The position numbers were made by a program, and so were the translations under genes. From Octopus vulgaris (lineage: Eukaryota): DNA of 64,000 nt. Below are positions 4,848-55,960 of this stretch, piece after piece. A model generated the notes under the pieces. It saw only the letters and a program-made list of their open reading frames with translations, was not told where the DNA came from and did not search any database. The DNA lies in the NCBI GenBank assembly GCA_951406725.2, contig OX597824.1:37076001-37140000 (forward strand), written 5' to 3'. Each line of letters begins with the position of its first letter. Positions within the stretch are counted from its first letter, which is position 1.

Positions 4848-5185
4848 ATATAAAAAAGGAAATGAAGAAAATGCTGACAAATAATTGAAGTAATTTAAGT
4901 AATTTAATTAGGTGAAAGTTCTTTTTACCGGTTGCGCATTTGTTATGCTTATCAAAATATAAAAGAGAGATTAGAGTTCCTTTCTTATAGAATTTTTCCT
5001 CTTATCTGAGGATAAGGGAAAAATAAGATAAGAGGAAAAATTCTATAAGAAAGGAACTCTAATCTCTCTTTTATATTTTGATAAGCATAACAAATGCGCA
5101 ACCGGTAAAAAGAACTTTCACCTAATTAAATTACTTAAATTACTTCAATTATTTGTCAGCATTTTCTTCATTTCCTTTTTTTATA
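4848..5185. repeat. Near-perfect palindrome (~160-bp arms, 18-bp spacer), Penelope-like terminal-repeat remnant
   Basis: Arm 4848-5007 is the reverse complement of 5026-5185 except for one homopolymer base. Each arm carries a hammerhead-like motif. The element is embedded in (TA)n. Confidence 0.9.
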
Positions 5186-5219
5186 TATATATATATATAT
5201 ATATATATATATATATATA

Positions 5220-5435
5220 AAGTTAATCCAAACATGAAAACACAAAGAGAAAACACAACAACGCGAGGACGTGGAATAAGTATAGTATTATTGGATGCTC
5301 AGGAAAGAAGGAAAGAAGGAGGGTTTAACGTTTTGAGTGGAGCTCTTCATCAAAAACATAGGAAAAGGAAAGATTCAAAGAAGGGAAGACGGAGGAAAAA
5401 AATCGCCAACGGTAAACACGTGGTCACATTTTGAA
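5220..5435 (-). mobile_element. Penelope-like terminal repeat remnant with a decayed hammerhead motif
   Basis: Minus strand 5324-5358 reads TTGATGA-AGAG-CTCCA-CTC-AAAACGTT. Confidence 0.5.
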
Positions 5436-5515
5436 TAACCAGGTAAAAACATAAACAATTTTTACCAAGTGGTCAGAGTGGAAATAAAAACTCATAGGTA
5501 AATTTTATAAATATC

Positions 5516-5644
5516 TTATAATTATATACATAATTATAACAAGGGCTTGTGTTTCCCAGAGAATTTATGGTGGTAATAGTGTCTTTCAACGTCTATTTTT
5601 CAGTGTATGATGAGCCCTTGTTATAATTATGTATATAATTATAA
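5516..5644. repeat. ~31-bp perfect inverted repeat
   Basis: TATAATTATATACATAATTATAACAAGGGCT ... AGCCCTTGTTATAATTATGTATATAATTATA. Confidence 0.85.
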
Positions 5645-5728
5645 TATATATATATATATATAGTGGAGGCACATGGCCTAGGGTTTAGAGCAGCAGACTC
5701 ACAGTCGAGGTAGAAAAAGGTAGAAAAG

Positions 5729-6700
5729 GTAGAAAAGGCCTCTTCATCCTGCTCAAAAAAATCGGATGTCCACCAAAGCTGCTGAGGATCATCAAATCTT
5801 TCCATGATGATATGCAAGGCACCATACAGCACAATGGTTCAGCATCAGCTGCCTTCCAAATAAAAAAATGAGGTAAAGCAAGGTTGTGCCCTTGCTCCTA
5901 CATTATTTGGCATCTTCTCGCTGCTACTGTCACATGCCTTTGAGACATCAGATGATGGAATGTTTCTGCACAGTAGAAGTGACGGGAAACTGTTCAATCT
6001 CTTGCGTCTGCATGCCAAGACCAAAATCAGAAGCATCCTGATGAAGGAGATGCTATTTGCTGATGATGCCACTCTGTTATCACACATGGAAGAAGCCCTG
6101 CAAAGGCTCATCAACTGTTTTGAGCAAGCATGTAGCGACCTCGGCTTAGTTATCAACCCCAAGAAGATCAACATCATGAGTCAGGCTATATCGGACATCC
6201 CAAACATACATATTGGAGATCACAGATTACAGGAGGTGGAGAAGTTTACCTATCTTGACTCTACCGTCACCTACAAACTATCTCTTGATACTGAGCTCAA
6301 TATACGCATTGGCAAGGCAGCTGCTGTAATGGCCCAACTATCCAAACTGGCATGGGACAACAATAAGCTGACCAAGAGCACAAAAATGAAGATTTACCAG
6401 GCATGTGTACTTAGCACCCTACTGTATGGAAGTGAGACTTGGATGCCATACACATGCCAAGAGCGTCGCCTAAATATCTTTCACCTGCACTTCCTCCGGA
6501 AAATCCTTGGCATCAAATGGCAGAATCATGTTCCCATCAAAGATTTCCTCAAGCAAGCAGGAATACCAAGTGTGTTTGCACACCTCACACAAAGACGTAT
6601 GAGATGGCTTGGACATGTTAGCCGTATGGAAGATGGCAGAATCCCCAAGGATATACTCTACGGAGAGCTTGCTAGGGGCTCTAGGTCTGTGGGAAGACCG
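5729..6700 (+). mobile_element. 5'-truncated RTE (BovB-like) LINE, C-terminal half of reverse transcriptase, decayed
   Basis: GCPPKLL and VKQGCALAPTLF lie upstream of ORF 5960-6727, which contains EMLFADDA, STLLYGSETW and RMRWLGHVSRMEDGRIPKDILYGEL. Confidence 0.9.
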
Positions 6701-6747
6701 TTCTATCTATATATGTGGTGCATGTAGATAGATAGATACTACCTTAA

Positions 6748-6912
6748 TAATACTACCTTAATAATAATAATAATAATAATAATAATAATAATAATAATAA
6801 TAATAATAATAATAATAATAATAATAATGATGATGATGATAATAATAATAATAATAATAATAATAATAATAATAATAATAATAATAATAATAATAATAAT
6901 AATAATAACAGT
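6748..6912. repeat. (AAT)n/(GAT)n microsatellite
   Basis: Read directly from the sequence. Confidence 0.95.
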
Positions 6913-53471: not shown

Positions 53472-54010
53472 TAGGTGTGACTGTGAAGTAAAAATTTTGC
53501 ATCCAAACCACATTGTTCCAGGTTCAGTTCCACTGCATGGCACTTTGGACATAACCTTGGACCATAACCCCAGATTGATCAAAGCCTTGTGAGTGGATTT
53601 GGTTGAGAGGAACAGAAAGAAACTTGGTGTGTGTGTGTGTGTGTGTGTGTGTGTGTGTGTGTGTGTGTGTTTGTCCACCACCATTGCTTGACAATTTGTG
53701 TTAGTTTGTTTATGTCCCTCTAACTTAGTGGTTTGGCATAAGAGATTGATAGAATAAATATCAAGCAGAAACATTAGCTCCCCGGGCTAAATGCTTAGCG
53801 GTGTTTCGTCTGTCTTTACGTTCTGAGTTCAAATTCCCCTGAGGTCAACTTTGCCTTTCATCCTTTCGGGGTCAATAAATTAAGTACCAGTTACGCACTG
53901 GGGTTGATGCAATTGACTTAATCCCTTTGTCTGTCCTTGTTTGTCCCCTCTATGTTTAGCCCCTTGTGGGCAATAAAGAAATAAGAATAAGTAGCAGGCT
54001 TAAATAATAA
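53472..54010 (+). mobile_element. Diverged family-B SINE with a nested family-A SINE (about 53765-53985)
   Basis: Homology to the other copies. The family-B tail resumes at AGAATAAGTAGCAGGCTT. Confidence 0.8.
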
Positions 54011-54099
54011 GATTGCGTTTCACGTACCCCAGTTAGGCCTTCCTTGTTTGTGTAATGCCTGCATGAGCTCACCATACTACAGCTGTTTGGGTACATGGT

Positions 54100-54300
54100 T
54101 GCATCCCCTCAAAAGTAGGAGCAAGCAAAATTCAGCCTCCCTGTCCCACTTCATCTGGAGACTTTGAGACCATCAAAATGACTTACTCGACATTACATGG
54201 AACATTCTTGACAAGGCCCCACCCTAATAACCAGGAGTTCGTTATTGCCAAATCTGCTTCCTTGAGAAACTGCAGTTCATTATAACAATAAAGGGTTTGT
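54100..54300 (+). mobile_element. Penelope GIY-YIG endonuclease C-terminal remnant
   Basis: Translates as LSHFIWRL*DHQN..DITWNILDKAHP...CQICFLEKL, matching the LS.HIW.LK...I.W.IL......C.LC..EK pattern. Confidence 0.65.
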
Positions 54301-54599
54301 CAGATCCTTTATAAAAGATACTATGTGCTTTATTAATCTATTGCAAGTTTTACCAACTAAAGTAAACAAGATATAATCACTAACTATAAATAGTTATCTG
54401 GAATTATTACAGTGTACTAATTACAATAGAAATAAATAGAAATTACTAATAATACCACTTTATGATATATGGGGTTAATTGAAGCCAGATAACTGAGGGT
54501 TGAGAATCTTTACCATGAACAGAGGTTATGAGACACATGAGTGACATAAGAAACGTTGTAATCAATTTCATACAGCTGACCAACATGCAAAATATTTGA

Positions 54600-55060
54600 C
54601 CTCTTTTACTCTTTTACTTGTTTCAGTCATTTGACTGCGGCCATGCTGGAGCACCGCCTTTAGTCGAGCAAATCAACCCCCAGGACTTATTCTTTGTAAG
54701 CCTAGTACTTATTCTATCGGTCTCTTTTGCCGAACCGCTAAGTTACAGGGATGTAAACACACCAGTATCGGTTGTCAAGCGATGTTGGCAGGGACAAACA
54801 CAGACACACAAACACACACAGACACACACACACACACACACACACACACACACACACACACACATATATATATACATATACATATCCATATACATATATA
54901 TGACGGGCTTCTTTCAGTTTCCGTCTACCAAATCCACTCACAAGGCTTTGATCGGCTCAAGACTATAGTCGAAGACACTTGCCCAAGGTACCACGTGGTG
55001 GGACTGAACCCAGAACCATGTGGTTGGTAAGCAAGCTACTTACCACACAGCCACTCCTGC
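54600..55060 (-). mobile_element. Full-length family-B SINE
   Basis: Complete head, internal microsatellite and tail. Confidence 0.9.
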
Positions 55061-55199
55061 ATGTGACAGAGCTATTTTGACTAAACAGTTTTCTTTTTCT
55101 AATGTCTAATAACCTTAAATTGTTGGTTTGTGAAGAAGAGAATACAAATTCACATTTAGTGATACAAATAGACGTACTAGTACGTTTTTATTATCATTG

Positions 55200-55490
55200 T
55201 AATCATCATCATCATCATCATCATCATCATCATCGTCATTTAGTGTCTGTTTTCCATGCTGGTATGGATTAAACAGTTTGACCAGGGCTGGTAAGTTGGA
55301 GAGCTGAACTAAGCTCCAGTCTGTTTTGGTTTGATTTCTATGGCTGAATGCCCTTCTTAACACCAACCACTCCATAGAGTGTACTGGATATATTTTACTT
55401 GTCACTGGTTCAGGTGCCTTTAACATGCCACCAGTACAAGTGTCTTTTACAAGTCACTGGCACAGGTTACCTTTATATGCCACCAGATGC
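55200..55490 (-). mobile_element. Diverged RTE 3' UTR
   Basis: (CAT)n, then GATGCCCTTC..CCAACCACTCC-like sequence and compressed hairpin units. Confidence 0.7.
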
Positions 55491-55544
55491 CTTATAAAAA
55501 AAATGTATTTTTTACTTAAGTTTCAAGTAGCTTACAATGAAGCA

Positions 55545-55960
55545 ACCCCCACCACCCCGCCCTGACCCTAGCCACATTCAGATGGCTGATCCCCCTTATG
55601 TTATAGAGCAGTTACTGTTTATATCTCGCTCAGAGATTTATTATTGTTTTCGAACGGATTTTCTACGCCAGTGACTGTGGTTACTGTGAAAATCCCTATA
55701 TATCCAGCCTGTAGGGGAAGTCCCTTAACGAAGAGCGGTGCTTACCATACATTGACAAGAGGCAATAACCTCGAAACCGGTCCGTGTGTAGTATCCGTAT
55801 CTTCGGGGAGGCTGATCTCCCTTTGCAGGCTGGCAAGGACACCGAGATGGTGTCAGCCCTTCTGGTGACGTTGATGTTCGCCTGGGGCTAAATGCATCAG
55901 TAACACCCCCACCACCCCGCCCTGACCCTAGCCACATTCAGATGGCTGATCCCCCTTATG
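55545..55960. mobile_element. 304-bp insert (TGTTA...TAACA ends, hammerhead motif) between perfect 56-bp direct repeats
   Basis: 55545-55600 is identical to 55905-55960. Hammerhead-like motif at 55746-55788. Confidence 0.8.
55746..55788 (+). ncRNA. Putative minimal type-I hammerhead ribozyme (U3:A8 core variant)
   Basis: CATACA-TTGACAA-GAGG-caataa-CCTC-GAAA-C-cg-G-TC-CGTGTG, with stems I-III formable and a GUC cleavage triplet. Activity is untested and the first stem-I pair is A-C. Confidence 0.55.

What the first reader, a model, noticed from the sequence alone, without database searches (positions are those of the whole stretch)
5071..55788. Unrelated repeats carry minimal hammerhead-like motifs whose core 3:8 pair covaries (C:G, U:A, G:C)
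Seen: at least six motifs in sequence-unrelated short elements share the order stem I - NUGANNA - stem II hairpin - GAAA - 2-bp stem III - NUH - stem I. They are 13620-13668 (GTGAACA, G3:C8), 55746-55788 (TTGACAA, U3:A8), 5074-5110 and its mirror (TTGATAA, U3:A8, GCAA instead of GAAA), 29900-29939 (CTGATGC, C3:G8), and decayed copies at 7605-7640 and 5324-5358 (-). Established: C3-G8 is a Watson-Crick pair in the active hammerhead, compensatory swaps can retain activity, and Penelope-like elements carry minimal type-I hammerheads with palindromic stem III that cleave as dimers. Inference: this genome hosts several Penelope or retrozyme-type families using non-canonical cores that a CUGANGA search would miss.
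Basis: partly seen in the sequence, partly recalled or inferred. Interest (0 to 1): 0.72.

Follow-up and report, generated by a model that had tools for sequence, protein, structure and literature searches.

The report
Penelope hammerheads with swapped core pair
The motifs are end pieces of Penelope-type jumping genes and their small passengers, each carrying a predicted self-cutting "hammerhead" RNA whose core base pair occurs as C-G, U-A or, in one family with likely over ten thousand copies, a reversed G-C that I found described only from laboratory mutants; cutting is untested.

Summary
Mostly confirmed, partly reinterpreted. All six motifs sit at the stated places and are copies of genome-wide repeat families. 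G3:C8 (13626) is the family state: 32 of 36, 8 of 9 and 12 of 13 copies in three sets found without the core. It lies in both pLTRs of a complete Penelope-like element (RT plus C-terminal GIY-YIG). U3:A8 (55752) marks a 360-nt tandem retrozyme-type family whose 89%-identical sister has C3:G8. In 1.2 Mb sampled evenly, all 27 intact motifs pair at 3:8 (20 C:G, 5 U:A, 2 G:C). Corrections: the families are not all unrelated (parents of 13626 and 29903 are 54% identical in protein); 55752 is canonical, not minimal; 7605 and 5353 are decayed C3:G8 copies; 5078 (A13C) and 29903 (A9C) carry family-wide core changes. U3:A8 is published, also in Penelope elements. Natural G3:C8 was not found in my searches, but two key papers were unavailable. 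Cleavage is untested. This scan noted the same G3-C8 family before on another piece of this genome.

The parts
13619..13669 (+). Family A hammerhead motif, G3:C8. Stem I 13619-13625/13663-13669, core 13626-13632, unpaired G 13633, stem II 13634-13638/13648-13652, GAAA 13653-13656, palindromic stem III to U16.1 at 13661, predicted cut after 13662
   Evidence: (stems I and II in the predicted fold)
13618..13748 (+). Right arm of the family A insertion: 5'-truncated pLTR of an EN+ Penelope-like element, without the tail
   Evidence: (88% to the L364 pLTR)
13452..13619 (-). Inverted left arm of family A, with the ~60-nt tail and the first 30 codons of the parent ORF (13545-13456)
55545..55960 (+). 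Family B insertion: one 360-nt retrozyme-type unit plus a ~60-nt overlap (partial tandem)
55746..55788 (+). Family B canonical type-I hammerhead motif, U3:A8 (core 55752-55758); this copy has A at 55751 where most displayed family copies have G, breaking the closing pair of stem I
4819..5181 (.). Family C two-armed insertion in (TA)n: arms 4852-5007 and 5026-5181 (100% complementary), tail 4819-4851 on one arm only; very young family
5074..5110 (+). Family C hammerhead-like motif, U3:A8 with GCAA (A13C); core 5078-5084; mirror core starts at 4955 (-)
   Evidence: 40 of 40 U3:A8; 41 of 41 GCAA; query contained the motif
29700..30061 (+). Family D stump: pLTR of a young 1312-aa Penelope-like element; motif core 29903-29909, C3:G8 with A9C
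19852..20097 (.).
7605..7640 (+). Decayed copy of family E (C3:G8 in 14 of 15 copies)
5324..5358 (-). Decayed copy of family F (C3:G8 in 22 of 24 copies; U3 here is post-insertion decay)

Best explanation
The motifs are predicted type-I hammerhead ribozymes in the terminal repeats (pLTRs) of Penelope-like retrotransposons and in a tandem retrozyme-type repeat, copied around the genome as truncated, often two-armed stumps, and their core 3:8 pair is fixed per family as C:G, U:A or G:C. Shown: family-level fixation, the parent elements for 13626 and 29903, and swaps between homologous families. Inferred: selection kept a Watson-Crick pair at 3:8 while base identity changed; the RNA of tandem pLTRs would fold as a dimer through the palindromic stem III and cut after NUH, slowly in the G3:C8 family; the genomic stumps are inert by-products of target-primed reverse transcription; and some lineages (A9C, A13C) have likely lost or weakened cleavage yet still transpose.
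For: G3:C8 in 32 of 36, 8 of 9 and 12 of 13 family A copies found without the core, none C:G or U:A. Locus L364 has two direct pLTRs 4261 nt apart, both G3:C8, around RT and GIY-YIG coding sequence; L361 has a 1025-aa frame and the same core. The C3:G8 sister parent (L362, L365) is 54% identical over 779 aa. Family B (U3:A8, 37 of 37, query contained the core) has a C3:G8 sister, 88.9% identical over 360 nt, with a further paired change in stem I. Evenly spaced 1.2 Mb: 27 of 27 intact motifs pair at 3:8; shuffles give 1.2 per Mb with mixed pairs. Between two A subfamilies (94 and 5 copies), 0 of 42 structural positions differ against 10 of 101 elsewhere, p = 0.034. Inverted copies, one-sided tails, (TA)n targets and ORF-start ends match PMC8557442 and PMC11167929. 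C3G/G8C partly rescues cleavage in a Penelope hammerhead (PMC11167929) and was the only core rescue in pairwise mutagenesis (PMC9901934).
Against: No cleavage data. Family A combines G3:C8 with a UUU site and an A/U-only stem III (dimer duplex -0.2 kcal/mol against -8.3 for ACCGGT). Core changes expected to harm catalysis are shared by many copies in other families: A9C in 32 of 36 D copies and in two long-ORF parents, A13C in 41 of 41 C copies, A6U (5 copies), U4C in 11 of 24 F copies. Hammerhead-dead mutants did not affect insertion in vitro (PMC11167929). The 27 motifs come from about ten families and 7 from one array, so they are not independent. The subfamily test has only 5 copies on one side, two from one element. 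In the search-derived loci 10 of 118 hits were mismatched at 3:8 (decayed copies), and one older copy has U3:G8 (L189).
Confidence: 0.75

Rival explanations
1. The G3:C8 motif is a catalytically dead relic. The fold is kept for another role (binding the element's protein, promoter or translation control just upstream of the ORF start), or the swap was selected long ago and now only hitchhikes.
For: Weak stem III and UUU site; family-wide A9C, A13C, A6U, U4C in other families, including young long-ORF elements; cleavage not needed for insertion in vitro (PMC11167929); low in vitro activity of minimal Penelope hammerheads (PMC4209133).
Against: All other core positions of family A are canonical and unchanged between subfamilies (0 of 42); a double transversion that restores exactly the catalytic-fold pair is hard to explain without selection on that fold; engineered G3:C8 cleaves partly (PMC11167929, PMC9901934).
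Confidence: 0.35
2. The variant cores are post-insertion decay of canonical CUGANGA motifs, or chance matches.
For: True for 7605 and 5353 and for the stem I mismatch at 55751.
Against: G3:C8 and U3:A8 are the family states; G3:C8 is in both pLTRs of a complete element; shuffles give 0.04 hits per window.
Confidence: 0.03
3. All motifs belong to independent short non-autonomous elements (retrozymes or SINEs) that converged on the fold.
For: Family B is a non-coding 360-nt tandem repeat without similarity to the parents found; no parent was found for families C, E and F.
Against: Families A and D are ends of autonomous elements with 54% identical proteins; G ends in a homologous ORF start.
Confidence: 0.07

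Closest known systems
Minimal hammerheads of Penelope-like elements (Cervera and de la Pena 2014, PMC4209133; main text parts 1-2 of 4, supplement file 2 part 2 read)
   Same: Type I, in pLTRs, extra nucleotide between A9 and G10.1, G10.1-C11.1, short palindromic stem III, mostly solo or inverted truncated copies; U3-A8 already reported (about 1,300 hits in Schistosoma mansoni).
   Different: Family A has G3:C8; no such core among the alignment rows I read in Fig. S3 (C3:G8, U3:A8 and one U3:G8). Stem III is 6 nt, all A/U.
Metazoan non-LTR retrozymes (Cervera and de la Pena 2020, PMC7229834, passages; bioRxiv 10.64898/2026.07.22.740005, part 1 of 5)
   Same: Family B: 360-nt tandem non-coding units with a canonical type-I hammerhead (6-bp stem I, 4-bp stem II, palindromic stem III).
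   Different: U3:A8 core with a C3:G8 sister family at 89% identity; circular RNA not shown here.
PAc Poseidon element hammerhead (Frangieh et al. 2024, PMC11167929, passages)
   Same: Tail defined by two end points inside the ORF start; G3:C8 partly active.
   Different: There G3:C8 is an engineered double mutant; here it is the natural family state.
Natural core variants of hammerheads (Perreault et al. 2011, PMC3088659, passages and term search of supplements)
   Same: U3-A8 covariation seen in nature.
   Different: G3-C8, A9C and A13C not found in the passages read or by term search of the supplement text.

Membership tests
Hammerhead ribozyme, type I (family A) | Three stems in type-I order around the core | tested here: met
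   7-bp stem I, 5-bp stem II, palindromic stem III
Hammerhead ribozyme, type I (family A) | Core U4 G5 A6, A9, G12 A13 A14 A15.1, U16.1, H17 | tested here: met
Hammerhead ribozyme, type I (family A) | C3 and G8 identity | tested here: not met
   G3:C8; the Watson-Crick pair itself is kept
Hammerhead ribozyme, type I (all families) | Site-specific self-cleavage | not testable with these tools
   needs an assay; only assembled contigs were listed
Hammerhead ribozyme, type I (families C and D) | Invariant A13 (C) and A9 (D) | tested here: not met
   GCAA 41 of 41; C9 32 of 36
EN+ Penelope-like element (parents of A and D) | RT followed by C-terminal GIY-YIG endonuclease | tested here: met
   motifs read by eye in the translations (YVDD, YIGET/YVGET, CxxC linker); Pfam gave no hit for these two
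EN+ Penelope-like element (parents of A and D) | Direct pLTRs with hammerhead flanking the ORF | tested here: met
   L364, two pLTRs 4261 nt apart; for D only the 3' pLTR motif was in the stretches fetched
EN+ Penelope-like element (parents of A and D) | 5' truncation, inverted copies, one-sided tail, (TA)n targets | tested here: met
Neptune, Nematis or Hydra clade | Placement in an RT phylogeny | not tested
   no reference proteins fetched; CxxC linker and apparent CCHH residues argue against Hydra as described in PMC8557442
Non-LTR retrozyme (family B) | Tandem 150-400 nt non-coding units, each with a type-I hammerhead | tested here: met
   360/361-nt spacing; sister array 359 nt
Non-LTR retrozyme (family B) | Accumulation as circular RNA | not testable with these tools
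   no raw RNA reads listed

The most novel reading that the evidence does not exclude
Family A is the first natural, active hammerhead with the reversed G3:C8 core pair, carried by an autonomous Penelope-like lineage whose close sisters use C3:G8 and U3:A8, so three states of the catalytic-fold pair were fixed within one clade.
Probability: 0.35. Interest if true: 0.62.

Novelty: new variant of a known kind. Interest (0 to 1): 0.45.

Why it matters
The 3:8 pair was key evidence for the active hammerhead fold, and G3:C8 has served as an engineered rescue control. A natural high-copy example would complete the covariation record. It also shows that CUGANGA or YUGANRA descriptors miss whole families. 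The clade offers a natural series (C:G, U:A, G:C, plus A9C and A13C lineages that still spread) for an open question: whether Penelope elements need their ribozyme at all. It is a variant within a known system, not a new mechanism.

Tried and rejected
Rfam scan at E up to 10: no hammerhead family among the 150 of 183 rows shown. Sequencing runs: no RNA holder on record listed, contigs only, so nothing on expression or cut ends. Laying contigs of four runs on family A showed thousands of pieces in four runs (12,712, 5,747, 3,476, 311) but the difference table is blind near the 5' end, where positions 3 and 8 lie; conservation of G3:C8 in other organisms remains open. The tally of 69 of 74 is not core-independent, because the query for L266-295 overlapped the core; one search replaces it. 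DNA-level homology tests were significant for A-D and D-K, marginal for A-K (3 of 1000 shuffles) and void for G, whose segment was probably mis-anchored; I rely on the protein comparisons. Hit L192 (G3:A8, 3 copies) is a tandem repeat and was rejected. The 426-nt array L347 is a local amplification of an A stump plus other repeats, not a retrozyme unit. PLE fragments beside family B copies (L046, L051) are separate insertions, not B's own ORF. No parent was found for C, E, F or B among seven fetched stretches. Pfam did not recognise the A and D parent proteins.
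Full report
Setting. The window is G000:C11:37076001-37140000 in a 2.8-Gb animal genome. Close relatives of the parent protein found below are annotated in Octopus records. Hammerhead numbering is the standard one, recalled.

1. Observation. All six motifs are present. A strict type-I descriptor finds 2 hits in the window, 13626 and 19970, against 0.04 per shuffle (max 1 in 100 shuffles). 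The other listed motifs fail it for the reasons given in the observation check. Rfam shows no hammerhead among the rows listed.

2. Are the variant cores family states? Family A (13626): G3:C8 in 32 of 36 copies from a search with downstream sequence only, 8 of 9 in evenly spaced stretches and 12 of 13 in loci found by protein; the rest are single changes, none C:G or U:A. Ten A cores in 1.2 Mb and 14,834 first-look candidates suggest over ten thousand copies. With queries that contained the core, and so are biased: B 37 of 37 U3:A8; C 40 of 40 U3:A8 and 41 of 41 GCAA; G 21 of 21 U3:A8; D 36 of 36 C3:G8 with C at position 9 in 32. Families E and F are C3:G8 in 14 of 15 and 22 of 24 copies, so the window copies at 7605 and 5353 are decayed.

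3. Unbiased census. In 100 evenly spaced 10-kb stretches, a scan with positions 3 and 8 free gave 18 motifs: 11 C:G, 5 U:A, 2 G:C, none mismatched; ten shuffles gave 1.2 per Mb with mixed pairs. With 20 more stretches: 27 motifs, 20 C:G, 5 U:A, 2 G:C; 7 come from one array. No A3:U8 family was seen. In the biased search loci 10 of 118 hits were mismatched, all within families that otherwise pair.

4. What the elements are. A, D and G end in frames that translate to homologous 27-30 residue peptides. A profile of these found a 167-aa protein starting with the A peptide, which led to long copies in the genome. [quoted passage not shown] L361 has a 1025-aa frame and the same core. The window copy is 88% identical to this pLTR. 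Family D is the pLTR of a young family with many 1310-1312 aa frames; both parents fetched carry C3:G8 with A9C. The A and D proteins are 54% identical over 779 aa. G's end is 70% identical to the D parent's first 30 residues; its own parent was not found. So one clade shows C:G, G:C and, through G, U:A. Family B is a 360-nt tandem non-coding repeat with a canonical type-I motif; its sister array L326 is 88.9% identical and has C3:G8 plus another paired change in stem I. Family C is very young (many 100% identical copies), two-armed, with a one-sided tail; no parent found. A further young autonomous family (L346, RT hit in Pfam) has a U3:A8 motif with a 2-bp stem II in its 3' end.

5. Mechanism. 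Shown: family-level 3:8 states, parents, insertion anatomy. Inferred: transcripts through tandem pLTRs would form a dimeric hammerhead through the palindromic stem III and cut after NUH, as proposed in PMC4209133. Reverse transcription starts inside the ORF start, giving the tail and truncated or inverted stumps, as in PMC11167929. Selection on the fold is suggested by exclusive pairing at 3:8 and by 0 of 42 structural against 10 of 101 other differences between two A subfamilies (p = 0.034; 94 and 5 copies). Against present-day activity: a weak A/U stem III (-0.2 kcal/mol), a UUU site, and family-wide A9C, A13C, A6U and U4C in other lineages, in line with the report that ribozyme mutants did not affect insertion in vitro. 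I put cleavage by the G3:C8 form at about 0.5 and by family B at about 0.85 (judgement).

6. Known and new. U3-A8 is published in nature (PMC3088659, passages) and in Penelope hammerheads (PMC4209133). G3:C8 appears as an engineered rescue in PMC11167929, PMC9901934, PMC8495972 and PMC3884650, all read as passages. Searches showed no natural G3:C8 and no octopus hammerhead study; I saw most hits as listings only. Lunse et al. 2017, a large survey of these variants, and Przybilski and Hammann 2007 were not held; file 1 of the PMC4209133 supplement was not searchable and figures are not held. These could remove the novelty. Also read as passages: PMC8557442, PMC7229834, PMC6765202, PMC6155905, PMC10085705; bioRxiv 10.64898/2026.07.22.740005 part 1 of 5 (13).

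7. Earlier scan notes (seen after my reading was formed) report the same G3-C8 family on another piece of this genome, U3:A8 retrozymes and an A9C family; these are unchecked notes, not support.

Verdict. Real family-level 3:8 covariation in Penelope-associated hammerheads; mostly known; natural G3:C8 in an autonomous element is the new part, untested for activity. Interest 0.45.

Noticed in passing
   Followed up: yes
L362, L365 (G000:C15:42992700-42998200; C29:25138300-25143900): Young Penelope-like family with many intact 1310-1312 aa frames whose hammerhead has A9C; a low-complexity Asn/Ser/Thr insert of variable length lies in the N-terminal half.
   Followed up: partly
L346 and L296-L325: Another young Penelope-like family (frames up to 869 aa) with a U3:A8 motif, only 2 bp of stem II and an extra nucleotide before position 3.
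   Followed up: partly
L201, L233, L238, L242, L245: Repeat family with A6U in the core in 6 hits of the relaxed scan; family F has U4C in 11 of 24 copies.
   Followed up: no
L188, L191: Further retrozyme-type tandem families (about 362 nt) with U3:A8, distantly related to family B.
   Followed up: partly
L347 (G000:C27:32595600-32599600): 426-nt tandem array made of a family A stump plus other repeat sequence, placing G3:C8 motifs head to tail.
   Followed up: partly
window 45346-46096: Tandem repeat of about 178 nt period, not examined.
   Followed up: no
window 17230-17421, 37306-37630, 52708-53231, 54603-55061, 57522-57935, 59815-60219, 61831-62180: Many copies of abundant SINE-like repeats, not examined.
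   Followed up: no
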